This document shows positions 812-16,921 of a stretch of 18,952 nt of DNA, in pieces. Origin of the DNA: a virus (lineage: Duplodnaviria; Heunggongvirae; Uroviricota; Caudoviricetes); IMG/VR virus record IMGVR_UViG_2563366990_000003, positions 1 through 18,952 of that record, one strand, 5' to 3'. The position numbers were made by a program, and so were the translations under genes. Positions within the stretch are counted from its first letter, which is position 1; every line of letters begins with the position of its first letter. The notes beneath the pieces are model-generated. The model saw only the letters and a program-made list of their open reading frames with translations, had not been told where the DNA came from and made no database searches.

Positions 812-1140
812 CAGTTCACCACCTGCTTAAACTCCGCGCTGAACTCAACGCGCAACATCCCGACCCGCGCAGACCACCCGGCGCAGGTCACCTTTATCTG
901 CCGGTATGCATAGGGTGGCTTCCACAAAAATGCCTTCCAGCCCCCGTGCTCTGCCAGAAACGCTTCCAGATGCCGGGCCTCCTCCCGGGTCACGGAAAGC
1001 GTCACCCGGTATGTTTTCAGGTCAGCATTCAGCCCTGCCGCCATACGCTGTGAGTACCCGTCACCAAAACGCACTTCACGCACCGACGGCTGCGAGTTCA
1101 CCTCCATATCCGGCTTCACTTTCCAGCGAAAGGTTTTCAT
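811..1140 (-). CDS. M: Minor tail protein M
   Basis: 109-aa ORF, the same length as lambda gpM, with recognisable similarity (MKTFRWKVKPDM...). ATG start overlaps the H stop. Confidence 0.93.
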   Translation of the reverse strand: MKTFRWKVKPDMEVNSQPSVREVRFGDGYSQRMAAGLNADLKTYRVTLSVTREEARHLEAFLAEHGGWKAFLWKPPYAYRQIKVTCAGWSARVGMLRVEFSAEFKQVVN

Positions 1141-3782
1141 CGCCCGCTCCCTGATAACATACCGCCATCACGCAACTGCAGCCGGAGTTCATCCTGCGCC
1201 CCCTTACGGGCCATGTCATACACCGCCTTCATCAGCTGCGGCCCCGCCTGTCCGTTTATACCGTCGTTCTGAATCACCACGTGATTGTTCTGATTAAAAT
1301 TAATACCTTCCGCCCGCCGCATCTGCGCCGGACTTCCGGCACCACCCACATAACCACCTTCCGCATAGCCGCGCATCAGACGGTAAAGATTCCCCACACC
1401 TATCCGGCTGGTTGCCTCTTTCGTGAAAACAAACTCCCCGCGGTGAACTATCCCCGCAGGCTCATATTTGCCGCCCGTCCCCGTAAATCCTCCGGTCGCG
1501 AAATGGAAGTTCGCCGCCGCAGCCTCAATGGCCGTCCCCGAGGAAGCAGATGCACCACCACCGAAAGCACCACCAATGGCGCTGCCGATACGCCCGACAA
1601 TTCCCACCATGGCCTGTTTAAGCAGGATTTCTGTCATCATGGACAGCACCGAACGGGTGAATCCCCGCCAGTCTGCCTCTGCACCGGTCAGCATCGCCGC
1701 CATATTCTGTGCAATACCATCAAAGGTCTGCGTGGCCGCACTTTTAACCTGCGAAAAACTGTCCGTCGCACTTTCCGCCCACTCCCCCCAGCCGGACTTC
1801 AGCCCGGCCAGCCAGTCACCGCGCAGCATGTCTTCATCCGCCCATGTCTGTTTCAGTGCCCCGGTGACCTGTGCCAGCGCCTGCGGATTATCGCCGTACA
1901 CGTCACGAAGACGCTGCTCTTCAGACTCCCGCTGTGCCTGACGGTCGGTGAGACCACGGGCTTTTGCGCTGATGGCGGCCTGCTTCGCGCTCTGCTGCTC
2001 TTCAAACCGCACCGCCTGCTGTGCCAGCTCATTCAGGCGTTTCTGGTATTCAACCTTGTCGCCCAGCTCAGCCAGCTGGCGTTTGTACTCCAGCGTCTCG
2101 TCTTTATGCGCCAGCAGGGATTTTTCCTGCCCGGATAACTGTCGTTTCGTGGCAGCCTCTTTCAGGACCGCATACTGACTTTCCGCCTTCCATAAATCAC
2201 GGCGCTGCCGACTGATTTTCTCATTCGCACCGCTGTGTTTTTCCAGCGTCCTGAGCTCAGCTTCAAGGGCAAGCAGAGCCTCTCTTGCCTGCTCCTCTTC
2301 CCTCTCCCCGGCAGAGCGCGTTTTCGGTGATGTATGCTTTTTACCTGTCAGCTCTTCAGCCAGACGGCTGACGGCTTCCTGCTGCCCCGGACCTTTGCTG
2401 ACGCCTGTTGCACGCGAACGGTTGATGTACCCCATTTCCCCCTGGCGTATACGCACATCCCGTTCCGCAATGGATTTTCTCAGCGCCAGTTCATCGCGTT
2501 TTGTTTTCTCAATAAATACGCGGTTCTCTTCTGCCAGTTCACCAAACAACGCACCAACGCCGGGCACATTCTTTGTCGTTTCCCAGGCTGACTGAATAAA
2601 TTCAGCCAGCGCCAGATCCCCCTGCACAAGCAGCAGCTTCACCTGTTCAACGGTTCCTGCCACCACGTCAGTGATCAGACTGAGTGCCCCCAGTGTATGA
2701 TCACCTATCCATGCCCATGCGTCAGAAGTCCAGGTTTTAACATCGTCCCAGATTTTTTCCACCGGCGTGGCCGCTTTATCAAGTTGCTCCAGACGTGCAT
2801 TCATGACATCCGCAAACAGGGACATCGCCTCCGTCACCGCAGCCTGTTTACCTTTCGTGCGCTCAAGCTCATCAATATGGCGTAACTGGGAAACGCTCAG
2901 GAAGTTATACTGCTGATTCAGGGAGGCCAGCGCCTTCACCGGATCTGCTGCAATCCCTTCAAAGGCTTTTTCCACCTTCCCGGCATCGTCCCCCACCGTC
3001 TGCAGCCATCTCTGAGAGGTTTCCCCCATGATCCGTAGCTGCCCGGCGGTATATTTCCCGCTTTCTGCCAGACGGGCCAGATTTTCTGCCGCCTGTCTGA
3101 TACCACCACCGGCTTCATCGCTGATCACCCCGGCCATTTTCCACAATTCTGCCGTTGTGGTGGCAGCCGCCCCTCCGGTCAGGGTCAGTGAACGCAATAA
3201 GGCCCGGTCAGCCTGCTCTGCCTGCCAGGCGGCAGCAGCAAGCGCGGCCAGTACGGCAACCCCGCCACCTGCCGCCACACGGGCCACCGACATAAATCGT
3301 CCCAGTTCACCGGCATTCCGGGCATTTTCAGCCAGTGCATTTGCCGTATCTGACAGCGAATCCTCTGATGATTCAGAGGCATCCCTGATCCCGAGAAGTT
3401 CCTCCTTCAGCAGGGTAAGCAGGCTGAGCGGTCCACCGAATGAATCGCTGATCTGCCCCCCCTGCTGCAGCATGATAAGGAAGGGATTCTGACCACCGGC
3501 AAGCTGAGTGACAATATCCGTGAACTGTGCGGGCAGTGTGCGCATGGCAGCCTTATACTGTCCGACTGATATCCCGGCTTTTTGTGCAGCCAGCGCCTGT
3601 CGGCTCAGACTCTGCTCAGCAGCATCAGCCTGTTTTCTGAAAGACTGACTGACTTTCCCGGACATCAAATCAGCAAGCGCACTGGTTTCACCCAGCTCTT
3701 TTTTTACCCGCGCTGCCTCTTCAGAAAAACGGGCAGAATCCAGTGTCAGCACGGCTGTCAGATCGGCAAAATTACCTGCCAT
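1137..3782 (-). CDS. H: Tail tape measure protein (lambda H-like)
   Basis: Long Ala/Gln-rich ORF with a segment matching lambda gpH (SLSRQALAAQKAGISVGQYKAAMR.LPAQFTD..TQLAGGQ). The ORF-track start at 3791 is a GTG; I place the start at the in-frame ATG at 3782, which has AGGAGG 8 nt upstream. Position between T and M fits. Confidence 0.93.
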   Translation of the reverse strand: MAGNFADLTAVLTLDSARFSEEAARVKKELGETSALADLMSGKVSQSFRKQADAAEQSLSRQALAAQKAGISVGQYKAAMRTLPAQFTDIVTQLAGGQNPFLIMLQQGGQISDSFGGPLSLLTLLKEELLGIRDASESSEDSLSDTANALAENARNAGELGRFMSVARVAAGGGVAVLAALAAAAWQAEQADRALLRSLTLTGGAAATTTAELWKMAGVISDEAGGGIRQAAENLARLAESGKYTAGQLRIMGETSQRWLQTVGDDAGKVEKAFEGIAADPVKALASLNQQYNFLSVSQLRHIDELERTKGKQAAVTEAMSLFADVMNARLEQLDKAATPVEKIWDDVKTWTSDAWAWIGDHTLGALSLITDVVAGTVEQVKLLLVQGDLALAEFIQSAWETTKNVPGVGALFGELAEENRVFIEKTKRDELALRKSIAERDVRIRQGEMGYINRSRATGVSKGPGQQEAVSRLAEELTGKKHTSPKTRSAGEREEEQAREALLALEAELRTLEKHSGANEKISRQRRDLWKAESQYAVLKEAATKRQLSGQEKSLLAHKDETLEYKRQLAELGDKVEYQKRLNELAQQAVRFEEQQSAKQAAISAKARGLTDRQAQRESEEQRLRDVYGDNPQALAQVTGALKQTWADEDMLRGDWLAGLKSGWGEWAESATDSFSQVKSAATQTFDGIAQNMAAMLTGAEADWRGFTRSVLSMMTEILLKQAMVGIVGRIGSAIGGAFGGGASASSGTAIEAAAANFHFATGGFTGTGGKYEPAGIVHRGEFVFTKEATSRIGVGNLYRLMRGYAEGGYVGGAGSPAQMRRAEGINFNQNNHVVIQNDGINGQAGPQLMKAVYDMARKGAQDELRLQLRDGGMLSGSGR

Positions 3783-3825: not shown

Positions 3826-4583
3826 TCACAACCTCCTTCCCTCCTCCCCGAAACGGACTCCACCGGCGAGGCCCGCCGCCTTCTGCATCAGTACATCATT
3901 TTCGTCCGGCGTCTCCGCCTGCCCTTCCTCTGCCTCCGGAGCGAACAGGCTGAAATCCGCCGGATGCATATCCGGATCGCAAAAAAACAGGCTGAGTACG
4001 GCGTACGTCAGCCCGGAAAAATGCATATCCAGCTGGGTATCCTGAAAATAATGCGTGCAGTAAAAACGTCGCCAGTCGGCATATTCGGTGGATGTCATCC
4101 CGGCAAGCATGGCGCGCCAGTCGGCTCTCCCCATCTCACGCGCCAGTTTCAGGACAAAGTTCAGCTCGCCTTCGAATGCTTTTTTGATGTTACCGGCTCA
4201 GTCGCTTCTGCTTTCCCGGTTGGTTCAGGATCGGCATCGTGCCGGTTATCCAGCATACCTGAAAGATAAAGCACCCGGTTCGTTGCCTGATTCAGTGCAT
4301 CAGCAGGCCATCCCAGCATCACTTCACGGCGGATCTGCTGCATCTCTGTCTCCGGAGATGCCAGAGTGCCTTTGAGGGAATGGGAATGCCATAGCGACAT
4401 CGCCACAAGCAGGGATGCCGTTTCCAGATATCGCTGGTTAATGTGCACGGCATCATGCTCCGTTGTCTCCTGTTGTGCTGCGTCTGAAACAAACTTCATA
4501 TAATCAAACCGCTGCAGCGCAGACAGCTCCGACAGCGTGACGGACACCCCGTTATATTCAAATTGTTCTGTTTTCAGGAACAT
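3826..4583 (-). CDS. Tail assembly chaperone G-T fusion, made by a programmed -1 ribosomal frameshift at 4179-4185
   Basis: The -1 frame relative to G is closed by TGA at 4198-4200 and open from 4197 down to a stop at 3826-3828. The only slippery heptamer in the G/T overlap is A_AAA_AAG. Predicted product is G residues 1-135 followed by about 117 T-frame residues. Lambda makes G-T the same way at the equivalent position. Confidence 0.8.
4161..4583 (-). CDS. G: Tail assembly chaperone G (zero-frame product)
   Basis: Internal ATG at 4583 with GGAGGAG RBS. The 140-aa product begins MFLKTEQFEYNGVSVTLSELSALQR, close to the lambda gpG N-terminus and the same length. The ORF-track start at 4697 lacks this support. 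Confidence 0.9.
   Translation of the reverse strand: MFLKTEQFEYNGVSVTLSELSALQRFDYMKFVSDAAQQETTEHDAVHINQRYLETASLLVAMSLWHSHSLKGTLASPETEMQQIRREVMLGWPADALNQATNRVLYLSGMLDNRHDADPEPTGKAEATEPVTSKKHSKAS
4179..4185 (-). promoter_or_regulatory. Slippery heptamer A_AAA_AAG for the G to G-T -1 frameshift
   Basis: Read directly: minus-strand TCA AAA AAG in the G frame, 6 codons before the G stop. It is the only X_XXY_YYZ site inside the window where both frames are open. Confidence 0.75.
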
Positions 4584-4599: not shown

Positions 4600-5349
4600 T
4601 CAGCCCGCAGCGCCATCCGTGACGGTGATCTCCGCCACCGCCGCAAACTCACCGTTGCCGGTGACAACAGGGATCTGCGCTTTACCTGCCGCAACACCTT
4701 TCACGATGATCGTGTTCCCTTTCACGGTAATGGTGGCGAAATTCTGATTCGCTGAGGTTGCGCGGAACGTTTTATCCGTTGCGCCTTCCGGCTGAACGGC
4801 CACGGTCAGGGTGATATTCTGACCTTTTGCCACATTCCCCGTTAGTGGCGTCACGGTAATACCGGTGACCGGTGTGATTTCTCCCCGATCCTCAGCCAGC
4901 GACGGACGACCGATATTGGTGATTTTCACAGTGCGGGTGATCACTTCTTTGGCGGTCACGGATTTACCAATGGCGCTCACCCAGCCACGGAACACATCCA
5001 CCGTGCCGTTCGGGAAGCGGATTTTGTAGGCCCGGGTCTCGCTGCTGTCAAACCAGGCAATCAAATCACGCTGCCCTTTCTCGCCGGGCTTCCAGGCCAG
5101 CGTAAAACTGGTGTCACCGGCAGATTTCTGCCCCTGCCCGGTGGATACCCAGTCAGCATCCTCATCATCCAGATAGTTATCGTCGTAGGATTCCGCCGTC
5201 ATCTCGCCGGGGGTCAGATCCTTTATTTTTGCCAGGCGCGTCCAGTCATCATCTGACAGCGGGTTTGCCCAGGCATCGCCATTTCCGGTATAAACCCAGA
5301 GCGTGGTGCCGGAACCTTTTACCGGCGCAAGGGGATTAGGGAGCGTCAT
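4600..5349 (-). CDS. V: Major tail protein V, with C-terminal Ig-like domain
   Basis: 249-aa ORF with extensive similarity to lambda gpV along its length ([45 protein letters not shown]...[14 protein letters not shown]). ATG start. Confidence 0.95.
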
Positions 5350-7081: not shown

Positions 7082-9061
7082 TCAGGCCACCGACGAACGC
7101 ACCAGACCGCGCCAGTCAAGTGGTGCCACACCGGCATCAATACGAATTTTTGTGGCAATGCCGTCAGTGGTGAAACCTTCCTGCTGATCAATGTATGGCG
7201 TGTCCACACCATCCAGCCAGGCCACTTCAATGGTGTCAGTGCCCTGTGCCGCCGCCAGATACCAGGTTTTCGGATCTGCCGCATCAAGACGCGCTTCCGC
7301 AATCACCTCAGCAAAGTTCTGGATGGGGTTAATGACACCGGCGTTTGCATCCGCCCCTTTCACACTGGCCGATTTGATGGTCTGGTTCGCCACCGTCTCC
7401 AGTGCCACCGGTACCAGCATAAAGGCCGGACGGATATTCAGGGCGCGCTCGCCTTCTTTCTGCAGGCGCATCATCTGACGGGCCGCATCCAGTCCGGAAA
7501 CGGAGATCCCGCCGGTGGCAATATTTTTGTGATCGGCATGGAACAGCGCCTTACCGTCGGACAGTTTCGGGTTATCCGTCAGCACCTTGTAAACCAGGTC
7601 ACCAATCGTTGCCTTCGCCGCACGCCCCATCTTCATCGGCACGTCCACCAGCATATTCAGATCATCATTGATAATGGCCTGGCGGGTGATGGAGAAAATC
7701 TCCCCGTAGGTGGCCAGAGCAATGGTCTCCTTGCGATCTGAGGTGGTGATGTATTTATACTCCGCCCCCTCACGAACCTGACGCAAAGAACCAAAACCGC
7801 CCATCCCCACGCGATACGCTGTTTTGAAGTCTGACAGGCGTCCCTTACGGGTCCACTTCTGGAAGGTTTCTTCTGATTCCTCCCAGCCCTGGATCAGCCC
7901 CTTGTTCGACACATCCAGCAGGATATTGCCAAAATCAGAGGTGCTGTGCGTAAGCGCCAGCCCGACCATCTGCATGGGGTTATAACTGGCCACCCCAATA
8001 CCGCGCTCCGTCAGTGACATACGAGCCCATTCACGCAGGGTCATCCCGTTATAGGCGTTATCCTTCTCGACATTTTCAAATCCGGCACGGGCCAGCATCG
8101 CCTGGCGGATCCCGTCTCCCACAAAATTGCCGTTTCCGGCATAAATATGGGCCGGTGTGTTTTTGTTGGTCGGCGAGGACTCCTTGCCCATTTCATTCAG
8201 CAGACGTTCACGGGCCATTTCCAGCGAACAGTCAGGATCAGCCACGCACTGTGCCTGAAGCGTCTGATAGCGACCGCCGAACATGGCAAACAGATCGTTA
8301 ATGCCTGACATGCGTGCTTTCTGCTCAGCCATAACGCGGGCGCGAATGGTCGCCTCATCAGACACTGCCGGTACCGGTGATGGTTCTGTTACCGCCGGTG
8401 CAGGGATTGTCACTGTGGTATCACGCGGGGCACTGTTGCGTGGTGGAGTAATCATGTTTCGGATGGATTCCGGCATCTTTTTAAATTCCTCTGTACGTTT
8501 TGACTGAATACATGCCATTGCCTCAACAGCGGGTGTCACCTGGTCAGCAAATCCGTGTGCCAGACATTCGGCACCGGACATCCAGGTTTCATCCGCCAGC
8601 ATGGCGGCAATTTCATCGGTGGTTTTTCCGGTTTTCTGCGCATAGGCTGGCAACAGTACCGATTCGACTTTATCCAGCAAATCAGCATAACTGCGCATAT
8701 CCTCAGCATCCCCGCCACTGAATCCCCATGGCTTATGGATCATCATGAAGGCATTTTCCGGCATAATGACCGTATCACCGGCCATCGCAATCACAGATGC
8801 CATCGAGGCGGCAACGCCATCCACATACACGGTAATGGTCGCCCCCTGATTTTTCAGGGCATTAAAAATGGCGATGCCTTCAAAGACATCGCCACCCGGT
8901 GAGTTGATGTGGAGATTAATGTGGGTGATATCACCCAGAGCATTCAGTTCGCTGACAAACTGCTTCGCGGTAACTCCCCAGAAACCAATCTCGTCATAAA
9001 TATAAATATCCGCGTCACCCGGCCCCCCAGCCTGCATCCTGAACCAGGATTTATTCTTCAT
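7082..9061 (-). CDS. Fused prohead protease (S49/ClpP-like) - scaffold-like linker - HK97-fold major capsid polyprotein
   Basis: About 659 aa from ATG 9061. The N-terminal part has the serine-protease-like region (HINSPGGDVFEGIAIFNAL...MASVIAMAGD). The middle is a charged helical segment. The C-terminal roughly 320 aa looks like an HK97-type capsid protein. The ORF-track GTG at 9253 would overlap the portal by 200 nt, so I prefer 9061, which overlaps the portal stop by 11 nt. Confidence 0.85.
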   Translation of the reverse strand: MKNKSWFRMQAGGPGDADIYIYDEIGFWGVTAKQFVSELNALGDITHINLHINSPGGDVFEGIAIFNALKNQGATITVYVDGVAASMASVIAMAGDTVIMPENAFMMIHKPWGFSGGDAEDMRSYADLLDKVESVLLPAYAQKTGKTTDEIAAMLADETWMSGAECLAHGFADQVTPAVEAMACIQSKRTEEFKKMPESIRNMITPPRNSAPRDTTVTIPAPAVTEPSPVPAVSDEATIRARVMAEQKARMSGINDLFAMFGGRYQTLQAQCVADPDCSLEMARERLLNEMGKESSPTNKNTPAHIYAGNGNFVGDGIRQAMLARAGFENVEKDNAYNGMTLREWARMSLTERGIGVASYNPMQMVGLALTHSTSDFGNILLDVSNKGLIQGWEESEETFQKWTRKGRLSDFKTAYRVGMGGFGSLRQVREGAEYKYITTSDRKETIALATYGEIFSITRQAIINDDLNMLVDVPMKMGRAAKATIGDLVYKVLTDNPKLSDGKALFHADHKNIATGGISVSGLDAARQMMRLQKEGERALNIRPAFMLVPVALETVANQTIKSASVKGADANAGVINPIQNFAEVIAEARLDAADPKTWYLAAAQGTDTIEVAWLDGVDTPYIDQQEGFTTDGIATKIRIDAGVAPLDWRGLVRSSVA

Positions 9062-10553
9062 GCTGGCTTTCGGTGTCACGCTGATACTGTCGTTCAGTTC
9101 CGGCACTGTTGCCTCCTTTGTCGTTGACGGGGTCAGTATCAAAGACCAGCCCCAGTCTGCTGTTTTCATCAATTTCAGCCTTGCGGCGACGTTTGACCTC
9201 ATCCGGATTGCGCCCGCCGGCACGCACCCAGTCAGATTCTGTCGCTGCACCACCCCGGATCTGAATTCTCCAGGCTTCAGCTTCCTTAACCGGGTCGATC
9301 CACGGCATCACCGGACCGGAATACGTCGCGTTATATAGCGTTTTCATCTCCACATCCGCCGGAATTTTCAGCAGACCTGCCGCAACCACCATATTCAGCC
9401 ATGTCCGGTACACCGGGCGGGTTACCGCGCCAATAAAACAGTCCTGCAGGATCAGGTAACCATCCGTGGACTCGACCAGCTCCTGCCGCTGGGCGCTGTA
9501 GGTGCCGTTATAGTTACGCGCCGCACTGGAAAAACTCAGACGACTGCCAGCTGCCACTGCACGCAACTGGCCGTTGCGGAAAGTTTCAAGGTTGGGATTG
9601 GGACGGTCAGATTTGACCATGCCGATATCCTCGCCCTTGCGCAAATCGTCATAAATAATACCCGGGGTGATATGGACTTCCCGCTCGGTTTCTTTGATCC
9701 CCGGATCTTCATAGTCCTGTCCGTCACCTTTACGGATATACAGTCCCAGCGCCGCAGCAATACGCGCCGCTGTCAGTTCCGCATCCTCATACTCTTTAAG
9801 GGCACTGATCCGCATCAGCACCCCCGATAACATGGATGAGCCTCGCGTCTGATGCAGACGACGAGTGAACTTCAGGTGGATCATTTTTCCGGCAGCGATT
9901 TCTTTCGTATCACTCTGCCGGCCGCTGACCGGATAATTTTTATAAACCAGATATTTTTTCGGTCTTCCCCACTCATCAAGAAAAACCCCCTGATTCAGCC
10001 CGGCGGATTCATCAGTGCGCATGGGAACAAAATCCGGCTCCATCGCCTCAAGCCAGAATGGCACTCCCGCCGTCCGTTCCAGACCGTTTCCCGCACCACT
10101 GACCATCTGCGCAAACACTTCACCATCCCGCAGCCAGGTCCGCAGCAGTAAACGTTCAAGCACGGGACGGGTATACTGCCCTGTCACATCCGGACTCACG
10201 GACCATTCAGCCCACAACCGGCGGATATCCGCAGCCAGCTCTGCCACCATTTCCCCGTTTTTTCGTAATGGCTGAGGCTCCACAATAATTCCCCTGGCAC
10301 CAATCACCCGCTCTTCCAGCTTGTCAAACACACCAATCACCAGGTCATGATTGATATCCAGAAAACGGACCTGCTCCCGCAGGGAAACCGCACCGTATTT
10401 ACTGAGCTGATCAGCAGAGCGATTTTCCCGCCGGGCTTTATGTGTCCGGGTCGGTTTCACCGCCTCATAGGCCATGATTAACGCCCTTGAACGCAGTCTG
10501 GCTGCTTTCCATCCGGGGGAAAACACGCCTATCACATCATCAATAATTGCCAT
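9051..10553 (-). CDS. Portal protein
   Basis: 500-aa ORF between the W-like gene and the protease/capsid gene. Size, position and acidic C-terminal tail are typical of lambda-family portals. ATG start overlaps the W-like stop. Confidence 0.88.
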   Translation of the reverse strand: MAIIDDVIGVFSPGWKAARLRSRALIMAYEAVKPTRTHKARRENRSADQLSKYGAVSLREQVRFLDINHDLVIGVFDKLEERVIGARGIIVEPQPLRKNGEMVAELAADIRRLWAEWSVSPDVTGQYTRPVLERLLLRTWLRDGEVFAQMVSGAGNGLERTAGVPFWLEAMEPDFVPMRTDESAGLNQGVFLDEWGRPKKYLVYKNYPVSGRQSDTKEIAAGKMIHLKFTRRLHQTRGSSMLSGVLMRISALKEYEDAELTAARIAAALGLYIRKGDGQDYEDPGIKETEREVHITPGIIYDDLRKGEDIGMVKSDRPNPNLETFRNGQLRAVAAGSRLSFSSAARNYNGTYSAQRQELVESTDGYLILQDCFIGAVTRPVYRTWLNMVVAAGLLKIPADVEMKTLYNATYSGPVMPWIDPVKEAEAWRIQIRGGAATESDWVRAGGRNPDEVKRRRKAEIDENSRLGLVFDTDPVNDKGGNSAGTERQYQRDTESQHEE

Positions 10554-10789
10554 TAAAACCTCGCCAGTTTAAATCCCGGTTTTCCCCGCCTGCGGCTCAC
10601 CATCGCGGCAAGCCTGCGTTCCCACTCCTGACGTCCGGCGCGGATCTGAGAAAGGCTTTCCAGCGTCAGTTGCTGCCCGTTGAAGGTGACAGACTTCCCC
10701 TCCAGTACGGCCATTTCCGCTTCACGGTACCGCTGTATCATTTCTCTGGCTTCTTCTGTGCTCACAACCAGCCTCCTGATGTTATCCAT
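10553..10789 (-). CDS. Head-tail joining protein, gpW-like
   Basis: 78-aa ORF between terminase large subunit and portal, the lambda W position. The C-terminus (RRRGKPGF) resembles the lambda gpW C-terminus (RRRGPAGF). ATG at 10789 confirmed. Confidence 0.7.
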   Translation of the reverse strand: MDNIRRLVVSTEEAREMIQRYREAEMAVLEGKSVTFNGQQLTLESLSQIRAGRQEWERRLAAMVSRRRGKPGFKLARF

Positions 10790-15450: not shown

Positions 15451-15771
15451 ATGAATAATAATGACAACAATTTACGCAAAGAGTTTTTGCAGATAATGAA
15501 CGAAAATGTTAAATCAGAATTAAAAGCGCTTATCCCGGATAATAGCGAAACCACTCAGGCCATTCTCTCAGAGCCTTACGGCATGCTTTCAACAGAAACA
15601 CTGGATATCATTATCACCACATTAACACCATTGATGCTTCAGCATCTGAAGCACAACATTAACAAATGGTTTAATGACGAACTCAGTCACCCGGGTTGTT
15701 CATGGGATAAAAACTTTGCCTGTCTGCAAAAAAAACGGCTCTTCAATAAACTATCGCTTAAGTTCAGATAA
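15451..15771 (+). CDS. Hypothetical 106-aa protein, plus strand, convergent with and overlapping the 3' end of the 385-aa gene
   Basis: It is the only plausible plus-strand gene in the window. It is AT-rich, Asn/Lys/Leu-rich and predicted helical. ATG at 15451, weak RBS. No family recognised. Confidence 0.5.
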   Translation: MNNNDNNLRKEFLQIMNENVKSELKALIPDNSETTQAILSEPYGMLSTETLDIIITTLTPLMLQHLKHNINKWFNDELSHPGCSWDKNFACLQKKRLFNKLSLKFR

Positions 15772-16921
15772 CCGCCCCAAACCGCCCTTTCAGATAAGTC
15801 AGCCCCGGCTGGATCCAATCATCTGGCTCAGTCTTAAAGGGTGGAGTATTGAAATCACGAAGAACGGTCTCCCGCACAACTGCATCCTTATCAGCACCAC
15901 TGACCAGCGCTTCAATCTCAGCGGCTACCTGCAGATACCCCATGCAACGACCAATGCGCTTCATTAGTCCCTGCTTTTTATTGTTCTTCAGGTAATCAAT
16001 GGCAAATTCAATGAGCGTCTCACAGTGCTGGTGCGATGGCGGTGTTACTTTTCCATTTTCTGAGATAGTTATTTTCCCGTCATCACCGGATACAACAAAG
16101 GATGGCCGGTTACACTCCCATTCCTGGTCACTGAAATCTACCTTCAGAAAGAACGGCCCGATTTTTGTAAAGGAACCTTTGGCATCGTTCCCCTCATGAC
16201 GGAATACACCGACTCCGGCGGTAACGAGTTCACCGGTTATCGTATTTGTGTCTATTTCGATGCTTACGGGAATGGAACAGAGGATACCTGGACTTCTCTC
16301 AACATCATGTTTGATGGCCTCATGAAAGCCACCAAAAGAATGAGCAATGAAACAATCACTGGCGAGATGCGTCCCCTTTAAAAAATTATCCAGAATCTCA
16401 CTATTTGCAGAGCGCTCTCTGTTTTTTTGAATACGGAAACACTCTGCGAGATTTCTGCTCATCACTTTCCGGCAATAATCGTAAAACGCCGCGAACTGCT
16501 CATCACGGCGTTTTTTTTCACCTTCGGAAGGGATCTGCACCGACAGTTTTTTATTCAGTTCAACGACGCTGTTCTCCAGTTTTTCAATGCGTGATTCGAT
16601 ATCATCTTTTTCTGACTGTATCGTGTTATATGCATTGTTAATTTGTATGGTATACCGCTCTTCTGAACAGAGGCGCTTTTCCCGTGACTGTTCATCCCCT
16701 TCACATAAAGCGGCAGCAATATCCATGAAAAACTGCTTCGCCTTCTTTTTCGCCTCAGCTTCGTAAAATTCCAGCGTGGCACCTTCAGTACGGTCAAGAC
16801 TAATCGCCACATATGGCGACAACAACGACGGCTGCCCGGCAATTTCCAGTGCCACAGTAACAGTAATCTTATCCGGGTAATTATTTATCCCTTTAACAAC
16901 CAGTTCGTATTGTTTATTCAT
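15764..16921 (-). CDS. Hypothetical 385-aa protein inserted between holin and endolysin; function unknown
   Basis: ATG at 16921 lies 3 nt after the holin stop, with GGGGAGAG as RBS. The ORF is long and uninterrupted in AT-rich DNA. Architecture by eye: N-terminal domain, a central charged heptad-like segment (about aa 85-170) and a C-terminal Cys/His-containing domain. No signal peptide or TM segment. No family recognised. Confidence 0.8.
   Translation of the reverse strand: MNKQYELVVKGINNYPDKITVTVALEIAGQPSLLSPYVAISLDRTEGATLEFYEAEAKKKAKQFFMDIAAALCEGDEQSREKRLCSEERYTIQINNAYNTIQSEKDDIESRIEKLENSVVELNKKLSVQIPSEGEKKRRDEQFAAFYDYCRKVMSRNLAECFRIQKNRERSANSEILDNFLKGTHLASDCFIAHSFGGFHEAIKHDVERSPGILCSIPVSIEIDTNTITGELVTAGVGVFRHEGNDAKGSFTKIGPFFLKVDFSDQEWECNRPSFVVSGDDGKITISENGKVTPPSHQHCETLIEFAIDYLKNNKKQGLMKRIGRCMGYLQVAAEIEALVSGADKDAVVRETVLRDFNTPPFKTEPDDWIQPGLTYLKGRFGAVI

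What the first reader, a model, noticed from the sequence alone, without database searches (positions are those of the whole stretch)
4179..4217. G-T frameshift uses an A_AAA_AAG heptamer; the lambda-type GGGAAAG nearby is out of phase
A GGGAAAG heptamer is present at 4211-4217 but is phased GGG|AAA|G in the G frame, and the -1 frame downstream of it is closed by TGA at 4198-4200. The only functional candidate is A_AAA_AAG at 4179-4185, six codons before the G stop, which is the dnaX-type heptamer. This fixes the fusion junction precisely and shows a different slippery sequence at the conserved G-T position.
Basis: seen in the sequence. Interest (0 to 1): 0.45.

Follow-up and report, generated by a model that had tools for sequence, protein, structure and literature searches.

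The report
Known AAAAAAG tail-chaperone frameshift site
This lambda-like E. coli prophage makes its G-T tail-assembly fusion protein by ribosome slippage on A_AAA_AAG instead of lambda's G_GGA_AAG at exactly the same position, an ordinary variant already catalogued for the near-identical phage VT1-Sakai and carried by about one in eight complete E. coli genomes.

Summary
The genes lie on the minus strand. G is 4583..4161 and the T frame is -1 relative to G. A_AAA_AAG (4185..4179) is in X_XXY_YYZ phase. It is the only such heptamer in the 34 nt where both frames are open. GGGAAAG (4217..4211) is phased GGG|AAA|G, and the -1 frame behind it closes at TGA 4200..4198.

An ungapped alignment with lambda puts AAAAAAG column for column on lambda's proven G_GGA_AAG, 15 nt before the same TGA. 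Among 77 related loci scored, every one carries AAAAAAG (38) or GGGAAAG (39) at that offset. The upstream out-of-phase GGGAAAG varies among close relatives and is a chance match.

Published E. coli reporter data give the two heptamers equal slipperiness. No SD-like upstream element is present. A downstream long-range stem is predicted but has no covariation support.

Xu, Hendrix and Duda (2004), as cited by Lynch et al. (2012), already list AAAAAAG as the VT1-Sakai frameshift site, and this window's G-T region is 98% identical to that phage. The allele occurs in 644 of 5,426 complete E. coli genomes. The four database records I opened annotate G and T as separate genes, with no frameshift join. 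Interest is low.

The parts
4161..4583 (-). Gene G, tail assembly chaperone (140 aa; ATG 4583..4581, TGA 4163..4161)
   Evidence: Translation. Pfam Phage_TAC_2 E = 7.6e-35. RefSeq annotates the 99.6% identical copy as gpG, phage tail assembly chaperone G.
4179..4185 (-). Slippery heptamer A_AAA_AAG in X_XXY_YYZ phase of G (codons 134-135, Lys-Lys); inferred -1 shift site
   Evidence: Sequence and phase. It is the only in-phase heptamer in the overlap. It aligns column for column with lambda G_GGA_AAG. It is invariant in 39 related loci.
3826..4179 (-). T-frame (-1) segment read after the shift: 117 codons (GCA 4179..4177 to CTG 3831..3829) plus TGA 3828..3826. With G residues 1-135 it gives a 252-aa G-T fusion, ...EPVTSKK|AFEGELNF...
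   Evidence: Translation. Pfam Phage_tail_T matches fusion residues 164-242, E = 3.7e-12. Substitutions among relatives fall on T-frame third positions right from the heptamer.
4198..4200 (-). Last stop (TGA) in the -1 frame upstream of the shift site. It limits the shift window to 4197..4164
   Evidence: It is polymorphic: five related loci read GACAGAG here.
4211..4217 (-). Out-of-phase GGGAAAG (GGG|AAA|G in the G frame); a chance match, not a shift site
   Evidence: Phase. It aligns to lambda GAGGACG rather than to lambda's slip site. It varies among close relatives (GGGAAAA, GGTAAAG). The 7-mer occurs at chance frequency in the window.
4102..4170 (-). Predicted long-range stem (4170..4164 pairs with 4108..4102) enclosing a GC-rich hairpin (4145..4138 with 4117..4110), starting 8 nt 3' of the heptamer. 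A possible stimulator, unsupported
   Evidence: Fold z = -2.1 for the window and -3.3 for lambda. No compensatory changes in 28 predicted pairs across 15 distinct sequences.
1137..3782 (-). Gene H, tape measure protein, immediately downstream (ATG 3782)
   Evidence: Pfam TMP_2 and Tape_meas_lam_C. VT1-Sakai annotation.
4600..5349 (-). Gene V, major tail tube protein, immediately upstream
   Evidence: Pfam Phage_TTP_12 E = 1.4e-66.

Best explanation
This is the G/G-T tail assembly chaperone recoding site of a lambda-like (VT1-Sakai/Stx-phage type) E. coli prophage.

Most ribosomes translate G (4583..4161) to its TGA and make the 140-aa chaperone. A small fraction slip back one base on A_AAA_AAG (4185..4179). 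At that point the P and A sites hold Lys codons AAA and AAG, and in E. coli both are read by the single tRNA-Lys(mnm5s2UUU). That tRNA re-pairs at least as well with AAA AAA in the -1 frame. These ribosomes bypass the G stop and read 117 T-frame codons, producing a 252-aa G-T fusion with the junction ...VTSKK-AFEGELNF...

By analogy with lambda, the G part binds the tape measure protein H and the T part recruits the tail tube protein V. The heptamer is an allelic replacement of lambda's G_GGA_AAG at the identical position, with equivalent intrinsic slipperiness.

Shown here: gene order, homology, phase, uniqueness of the site, positional homology with lambda, conservation of the site, and T-frame constraint beginning at the heptamer. 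Inferred: that the fusion is actually made, its rate (probably a few per cent, as in lambda), and its role in tail assembly.
For: - Gene order is Z-U-V-G-T-H-M-L, with Pfam hits for every gene.
- T is in the -1 frame of G, and the two frames are both open for only 34 nt.
- A_AAA_AAG is the only in-phase X_XXY_YYZ in that overlap. It is also the only V_VVA_AAG heptamer in phase in any of the 20 minus-strand ORFs examined in the window.
- The ungapped lambda alignment places it exactly on G_GGA_AAG, 15 nt before a shared TGA. Lambda's site is experimentally established, with about 96% of ribosomes staying in the zero frame (PMC3296357; PMC5009743).
- All 77 related loci scored carry AAAAAAG or GGGAAAG at this offset. 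The AAAAAAG context is identical in 39 loci.
- Variable columns between the heptamer and the annotated T ATG fall on T-frame codon positions 3 (six columns) and 2 (four columns) and never on position 1. The T-frame peptide [K/G]K[A/V]F[E/D]GEL[N/S]F[V/A]L[K/R]LAREM is conserved, while the G-frame tail varies (HSKAS, SSTAS, CSTVS, PSTAS and others).
- Measured -1 frameshifting in E. coli reporters, without stimulator / with IS911 stimulators / with the IS3 pseudoknot: AAAAAAG 0.29 / 4.3 / 39 %, GGGAAAG 0.28 / 3.8 / 43 % (Sharma et al. 2014, supplement).
- AAAAAAG is listed as the VT1-Sakai G-T shift site in Xu et al. 2004, as cited by PMC3483164. The window is 98.1% identical to VT1-Sakai here.
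Against: - There is no direct protein evidence for this allele in anything I could read.
- No public record I opened annotates the join. VT1-Sakai and phage ASU11 annotate T from the internal ATG 4134, and RefSeq marks T as an incomplete pseudogene.
- The T part here is about 35 residues shorter at its C-terminus than in lambda and many relatives, so full function of the fusion is not guaranteed.
- No stimulatory element is demonstrated. No SD-like sequence lies upstream (by inspection), and the predicted downstream stem has no covariation support.
Confidence: 0.9

Rival explanations
1. T is an independent gene translated from its own start (ATG 4134..4132), as the database records annotate it, and no frameshift is used.
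For: AP000400 (VT1-Sakai), ON416862 (ASU11) and RefSeq all annotate a separate T CDS starting at that ATG.
Against: - The bases before the ATG (CUGGCGCGUGAG-AUG) contain no properly spaced Shine-Dalgarno sequence (read).
- The T-frame peptide is conserved for 15 further codons upstream of that ATG, right back to the heptamer, with substitutions on T-frame third positions.
- The -1 frame closes 12 nt upstream of the heptamer.
- In lambda the homologous T frame is expressed through the G-T frameshift.
Confidence: 0.04
2. The shift happens at the lambda-like GGGAAAG at 4217..4211.
For: The 7-mer is identical in sequence to lambda's slippery site and lies 26 nt upstream of the real candidate.
Against: - It is phased GGG|AAA|G, so a -1 slip would re-pair tRNA-Gly on CGG and tRNA-Lys on GAA, with a first-position mismatch at each.
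- The -1 frame then ends at TGA 4200..4198.
- It is not homologous to lambda's site.
- It is GGGAAAA or GGTAAAG in close relatives.
- The 7-mer occurs at chance frequency in the window.
Confidence: 0.01
3. The frame change is made by RNA polymerase slippage on the A run (six A residues, 4185..4180) rather than by the ribosome.
For: Homopolymeric A runs can cause transcriptional slippage (PMC3711429).
Against: Productive transcriptional slippage is reported for runs longer than seven A residues, and here there are six. The allelic site in lambda and in 39 loci is GGGAAAG, with only three A residues at the same position. That fits tandem tRNA slippage and not polymerase slippage.
Confidence: 0.03
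4. The site is intact, but the tail module is a decaying prophage remnant, so no functional G-T is needed or made.
For: RefSeq flags T as incomplete and missing its C-terminus. The T part ends early at GEEGRRL*, leaving a 43-nt gap before H.
Against: - The Pfam T domain is complete, covering profile positions 1-72 of 73.
- The same short-T form occurs in 17 of the fetched related loci.
- It also occurs in phage ASU11, whose genome was obtained by mitomycin C induction.
- All neighbouring tail and head ORFs in the window are full-length.
- The allele is present in 644 genomes with the heptamer context preserved.
Confidence: 0.1

Closest known systems
Bacteriophage lambda G / G-T programmed -1 ribosomal frameshift (Levin, Hendrix & Casjens 1993; Xu, Hendrix & Duda 2004, 2013, 2014)
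   Same: Same gene order (V-G-T-H) and homologous G and T proteins; the fusion is 57% identical to lambda's. The -1 overlap is the same. The heptamer sits at the identical aligned position, 15 nt before the same TGA. The A-site codon AAG, read by tRNA-Lys, is the same.
   Different: The first three bases are AAA instead of GGG. The P-site codon is therefore AAA (Lys) rather than GGA (Gly), and the junction reads Lys-Lys rather than Gly-Lys. The C-terminal part of G is a different allele. The T part lacks about 35 C-terminal residues, including the second GGVRYG motif.
Phage VT1-Sakai (prophage Sp15 of E. coli O157:H7 Sakai) G/T, with shift site AAAAAAG as listed by Xu et al. 2004
   Same: The G-T region is 98.1% identical. 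It has the same heptamer, the same offset, the same -1-frame TGA and the same short T (L001). PMC3483164 names VT1-Sakai as using AAAAAAG, citing Xu et al. 2004.
   Different: Only a few point differences. For example, VT1-Sakai has GGGAAAA where the window has the out-of-phase GGGAAAG.
E. coli dnaX tau/gamma -1 frameshift cassette
   Same: The slippery heptamer A_AAA_AAG is identical and relies on the same single tRNA-Lys.
   Different: dnaX has an SD-like stimulator upstream and a stem-loop shortly downstream, and shifts about 50% of ribosomes to give a shorter product. Here no SD-like sequence is present and only an unsupported long-range stem is predicted. The product is longer than the zero-frame product, and the expected rate is a few per cent.
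IS3/IS911-family transposase OrfAB frameshift sites
   Same: A_AAA_AAG is the commonest heptamer there too, and it also yields a longer fusion protein.
   Different: The proteins are unrelated. IS sites usually have a proven downstream hairpin or pseudoknot, sometimes with an upstream SD as well.

Membership tests
Lambda-type G/G-T tail assembly chaperone frameshift | Two overlapping ORFs lie between the major tail protein gene and the tape measure gene, with the second ORF in the -1 frame of the first | tested here: met
   V 4600-5349, G 4161-4583, T frame 3826-4197 and H 1137-3782, all on the minus strand. The T frame is -1 relative to G.
Lambda-type G/G-T tail assembly chaperone frameshift | The proteins are homologous to lambda gpG and gpT | tested here: met
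   Pfam Phage_TAC_2 E = 7.6e-35 and Phage_tail_T E = 3.7e-12. The fusion is 57% identical to lambda G-T.
Lambda-type G/G-T tail assembly chaperone frameshift | An X_XXY_YYZ heptamer lies in the zero-frame phase within the stretch where both frames are open | tested here: met
   A_AAA_AAG at 4185..4179 is the only such heptamer in the 34-nt overlap.
Lambda-type G/G-T tail assembly chaperone frameshift | The heptamer is at the position homologous to the experimentally mapped lambda site | tested here: met
   The alignment is ungapped and both heptamers end 15 nt before the shared TGA. All 77 scored loci have the same offset.
Lambda-type G/G-T tail assembly chaperone frameshift | The second frame is under coding constraint from the shift site onward and has no start of its own | tested here: met
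   Variable columns fall on T-frame positions 3 and 2 and never on position 1, and the T-frame peptide is conserved from the heptamer. No spaced SD precedes ATG 4134. The sample of variable sites is small (10 columns).
Lambda-type G/G-T tail assembly chaperone frameshift | A fusion protein is produced at a low, fixed ratio to G and is required for tail assembly | not testable with these tools
   This needs protein detection or genetics. It is established only for lambda.
dnaX-type frameshift cassette | A_AAA_AAG heptamer | tested here: met
dnaX-type frameshift cassette | An SD-like stimulator lies about 10 nt upstream of the heptamer | tested here: not met
   The upstream 30 nt, GAAAGCAGAAGCGACTGAGCCGGTAACATC, contains no GGAG, AGGA or GAGG. 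The other alleles have none either (by inspection). Sharma et al. list the related lambda-type gpG cluster as having no SD.
dnaX-type frameshift cassette | A stable stem-loop lies a few nt downstream and stimulates the shift | tested here: inconclusive
   The first 50 nt contain no local hairpin (z = +2.3). A long-range stem starting 8 nt downstream is predicted in both the window (z = -2.1) and lambda (z = -3.3). None of its 28 pairs shows a compensatory change.
dnaX-type frameshift cassette | The frameshift gives a shorter product at about 50% efficiency | tested here: not met
   The frameshift product is longer here: 252 aa against 140 aa. Efficiency was not measured.

The most novel reading that the evidence does not exclude
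The AAAAAAG allele may not be functionally neutral. Both the P-site and the A-site codon are read by the same thiolation-sensitive tRNA-Lys, and the base 3' of the heptamer is C rather than lambda's U. This lineage might therefore set a different G:G-T ratio from lambda, or depend more strongly on host tRNA-Lys modification. Such a shift could be co-adapted with the shortened T domain and the distinct G C-terminus that travel with the allele.
Probability: 0.1. Interest if true: 0.3.

Novelty: already known. Interest (0 to 1): 0.1.

Why it matters
It matters little for discovery. It is a textbook recoding site in a very common STEC-type lambdoid prophage, and the heptamer variant was listed in the 2004 survey of tail chaperone frameshifts.

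Its practical value is for annotation. The four public records opened here (the original lambda entry J02459, VT1-Sakai, ASU11 and a RefSeq E. coli chromosome) give G and T as separate genes, and RefSeq marks T as a pseudogene. The exact junction (G codon 135, then GCA at 4179..4177) would allow a correct join to be annotated.

The two interchangeable alleles at one fixed position, with equal measured slipperiness, also illustrate that selection preserves the slip site and its position rather than its exact sequence.

Tried and rejected
1. Shift at the upstream GGGAAAG. Rejected because it is out of phase, is followed by a -1-frame stop, is not homologous to lambda's site and varies among relatives.
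2. Independent initiation of T at ATG 4134. Rejected because there is no spaced SD and T-frame conservation extends upstream to the heptamer.
3. Transcriptional slippage. Rejected because the run is only six A residues and the allelic site GGGAAAG has three.
4. A conserved RNA stimulator. RNAalifold on 15 distinct sequences found a common fold but no compensatory pairs. Single-sequence z-scores are only -2.1 to -3.3. This remains inconclusive.
5. Rfam scan of the whole window: no family matched.
6. The genome-contig scan with the single fusion protein returned only one locus, from E. albertii.
7. Xu et al. 2013 could not be read, by DOI or by PMC3762263. I did not try to retrieve Xu et al. 2004 or Levin et al. 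1993. The attribution of AAAAAAG in VT1-Sakai to Xu et al. 2004 is therefore second-hand, through Lynch et al. 2012.
8. The Sharma et al. cluster A_AAA_AAG_25 (ECs1801, 124-aa zero-frame product, 226-aa fusion) is a different tail chaperone family from this 140/252-aa G-T. I did not count it as prior description of this locus.

Full report
**What is in the sequence.** The genes in this part of the window run on the minus strand. Read in that direction, gene G starts at ATG 4583..4581, preceded by GGAGGAG, and ends at TGA 4163..4161. It encodes 140 aa.

The frame that encodes the lambda T homologue is -1 relative to G. Its last upstream stop is TGA 4200..4198, and it stays open to TGA 3828..3826. 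The two frames are therefore both open only between 4197 and 4164, a stretch of 34 nt.

Within that stretch the G frame reads ACA TCA AAA AAG CAT TCG AAG GCG AGC TGA. A_AAA_AAG at 4185..4179 is thus in the X_XXY_YYZ phase needed for tandem -1 slippage. It is the only such heptamer in the overlap.

The GGGAAAG at 4217..4211 begins on a codon boundary (ACC GGG AAA GCA). It is out of phase, and a shift there would run into TGA 4200..4198. Every coordinate and phase statement in the finding is correct.

**Is it more than chance?** As plain 7-mers neither motif is enriched in the window: AAAAAAG occurs 5 times against 2.96 expected, and GGGAAAG 4 times against 3.46. In-phase X_XXY_YYZ heptamers of any kind occur 21 times in the 5,587 codons of 20 minus-strand ORFs, about what chance predicts. 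Only one of those belongs to the class that is highly shift-prone in E. coli (V_VVA_AAG), and it lies in the G/T overlap. The signal therefore comes from position, phase and conservation.

**Identity of the locus.** Pfam assigns G to Phage_TAC_2 (lambda gpG, E = 7.6e-35). In the conceptual 252-aa fusion it assigns residues 164-242 to Phage_tail_T. The neighbouring genes are:

- L, M and H (tape measure) on one side;
- V (tail tube), U and Z on the other;
- then head-tail, cement, ClpP-capsid, portal and large terminase genes, and a lysis cassette.

The G-T region is 99.4% identical to several Stx2a-converting phages and 98.1% identical to phage VT1-Sakai. It is 99.6% identical to a copy in an E. 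coli chromosome. The window is the late region of a lambda-like STEC-type prophage.

**Comparison with lambda.** An alignment of the window's G-T region with lambda 9704..10559 is ungapped through the end of G. The window's ACATC-AAAAAAG-CATTCGAAGGCGAGCTGA lies column for column on lambda's TCTGC-GGGAAAG-TGTTCGACGGTGAGCTGA. In both, the heptamer ends 15 nt before the same TGA.

Lambda's G_GGA_AAG is the experimentally established shift site. About 96% of ribosomes stay in frame there, and the G:G-T ratio is critical for tail assembly (PMC3296357; PMC5009743). The window's upstream GGGAAAG aligns with lambda GAGGACG, so it is not a displaced copy of that site.

**Survey of relatives.** I fetched 80 IMG/VR loci with a two-sequence G-T profile and added lambda, VT1-Sakai, an E. 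coli chromosome and an E. albertii contig. Seventy-seven sequences, including the window, had a G of normal length and could be scored. All of them carry either AAAAAAG (38) or GGGAAAG (39) exactly 15 nt before the G stop, and it is always the only in-phase heptamer in the overlap. Two further loci have a shortened G ORF and no heptamer at that offset.

The 22-nt context ACATCAAAAAAGCATTCGAAGG is identical in 39 loci. By contrast, the out-of-phase GGGAAAG is GGGAAAA in eight close relatives and GGTAAAG in six. The -1-frame TGA at 4200..4198 is absent from five (GACAGAG). Neither feature is conserved, as expected for non-functional sequence.

The heptamer allele travels with the G allele. The sequence upstream of the heptamer falls into unrelated families, while the sequence downstream is nearly invariant across all of them. 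One locus (L055) combines GGGAAAG with the window-type T N-terminus. The region around the slip site is therefore a mosaic boundary.

**Where T-frame coding begins.** Among 30 distinct sequences, the four variable columns in the 15 nt between the heptamer and the G stop fall on T-frame codon positions 3, 3, 3 and 2. These are G-frame positions 2, 2, 2 and 1. From the heptamer to the annotated T ATG the tally is six columns at position 3, four at position 2 and none at position 1.

The T-frame peptide [K/G]K[A/V]F[E/D]GEL[N/S]F[V/A]L[K/R]LAREM is conserved, whereas the G-frame tail varies (HSKAS, SSTAS, CSTVS, PSTAS, FSTAS). The number of sites is small. Even so, the pattern says the T frame is the constrained one immediately after the heptamer. 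That argues against independent initiation at ATG 4134, which also lacks a spaced Shine-Dalgarno sequence.

**Mechanism.** On A_AAA_AAG both codons are lysine. In E. coli both are read by the single tRNA-Lys (mnm5s2UUU), which pairs more strongly with AAA than with AAG. After a -1 slip the ribosome reads AAA AAA and then GCA TTC GAA... The product is G residues 1-135 followed by 117 T-frame residues, 252 aa in all, with the junction ...VTSKK-AFEGELNF...

Published reporter measurements in E. coli give AAAAAAG 0.29%, 4.3% and 39% frameshifting without a stimulator, with the IS911 stimulators and with the IS3 pseudoknot. GGGAAAG gives 0.28%, 3.8% and 43% under the same conditions (Sharma et al. 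2014, supplement). The two alleles are therefore intrinsically equivalent. The same paper notes that 3' context alone can raise such motifs about 12-fold, to roughly 3.7%. That is the order of lambda's rate.

I looked for stimulators:

- No SD-like sequence lies upstream in any allele.
- The first 50 nt downstream contain no local hairpin (z = +2.3).
- A long-range stem starting 8 nt after the heptamer and enclosing a GC-rich hairpin is predicted in both the window (z = -2.1) and lambda (z = -3.3).
- Across 15 distinct sequences, none of the 28 predicted pairs shows a compensatory change, because the region hardly varies.

The stimulator question stays open. No Rfam family matches anywhere in the window.

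**Rival explanations.** A shift at the upstream GGGAAAG is excluded by phase and by the stop codon. Transcriptional slippage is unlikely. The run has only six A residues, whereas productive slippage is described for runs longer than seven, and the allelic site has only three A residues at the same position. A decaying prophage cannot be fully excluded, because the T part is short and RefSeq flags it as incomplete. Against that:

- the Pfam T domain is complete;
- all neighbouring genes are intact;
- the identical short-T form occurs in 17 related fetched loci and in phage ASU11, which was recovered by mitomycin C induction.

**Novelty.** Lynch et al. [quoted passage not shown] They cite Xu, Hendrix & Duda 2004. 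VT1-Sakai has only this G/T pair, with this heptamer at this position. The specific observation has therefore been in the literature since 2004. I could not read the 2004 paper itself, so this attribution is second-hand.

A_AAA_AAG is also a recognised tail chaperone shift site in another E. coli prophage family, the Sharma et al. cluster A_AAA_AAG_25. The allele is very common: a 71-nt query spanning the site matches 1,445 places in 644 of 5,426 complete E. coli genomes.

What is missing is annotation. The four public records opened here (the original lambda entry J02459, VT1-Sakai, ASU11 and the RefSeq E. coli SMBL chromosome) give G and T as separate CDSs, and RefSeq marks T as a pseudogene.

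**Verdict.** It is an ordinary, already described variant of the lambda G-T frameshift, so the interest is low.

Noticed in passing
window 3826-3870 (minus strand); compare L021, L038, L054 and L003: The T frame ends early at ...GGVRFGEEGRRL*, 117 codons after the shift. It lacks about 35 C-terminal residues, including the second GGVRYG motif found in lambda and in the 149- and 152-codon forms. A 43-nt gap follows before H's ATG 3782, which has its own AGGAGG. RefSeq calls T 'incomplete; missing C-terminus'. The same short form is in 17 fetched loci, including VT1-Sakai, and in the mitomycin-induced phage ASU11.
   Followed up: partly
window 4100-4230 (minus strand); loci L003-L084: The slip site sits at a mosaic boundary. 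The last roughly 45 nt of G fall into unrelated allelic families, while the first roughly 95 nt after the heptamer are nearly invariant in all of them. L055 combines the GGGAAAG/other-G allele with the window-type T N-terminus.
   Followed up: partly
window 4102-4170 (minus strand); L003 524-594: The same bipartite fold is predicted downstream of the heptamer in the window and in lambda: an outer 7-bp stem starting 8 nt after the heptamer plus an inner GGCGCG/CGYGCC hairpin. The z-scores are -2.1 and -3.3, and there is no covariation.
   Followed up: partly
window 3826-4134; AP000400, ON416862, NZ_CP061914, J02459: None of the public records opened annotates the G-T join. T is given as a separate CDS, starting at an internal ATG in VT1-Sakai and ASU11, or as a pseudogene in RefSeq. 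The original lambda record J02459 also lists G and T separately.
   Followed up: yes
window 16373-16385 (minus strand), in ORF 15764-16921 (DUF1327 N-terminal domain): TTTTTTAAAGGGG contains three overlapping in-phase slippery heptamers: T_TTT_TTA, T_TTA_AAG and A_AAG_GGG. The -1 frame closes after 9 codons (FFKGDASRQ*), so a slip would only truncate the protein.
   Followed up: partly
window 3699-3705 (minus strand), in H (codons 26-28): An in-phase A_AAA_AAA, a run of seven A residues followed by G, lies near the start of the tape measure gene. Reading the -1 frame from the sequence gives AAA AAA AGA GCT GGG TGA, a quick stop.
   Followed up: no
window 7082-9253 and 9051-10553 (minus strand): A 723-aa ORF fuses a ClpP-type protease domain (residues 95-240) to a major capsid domain (residues 433-720). 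Its longest form overlaps the end of the portal ORF by about 200 nt, so the true start is probably internal.
   Followed up: no
Five related loci read GACAGAG, which leaves the -1 frame open for 61 nt. The argument against the upstream site therefore rests on phase, not on this stop.
   Followed up: yes
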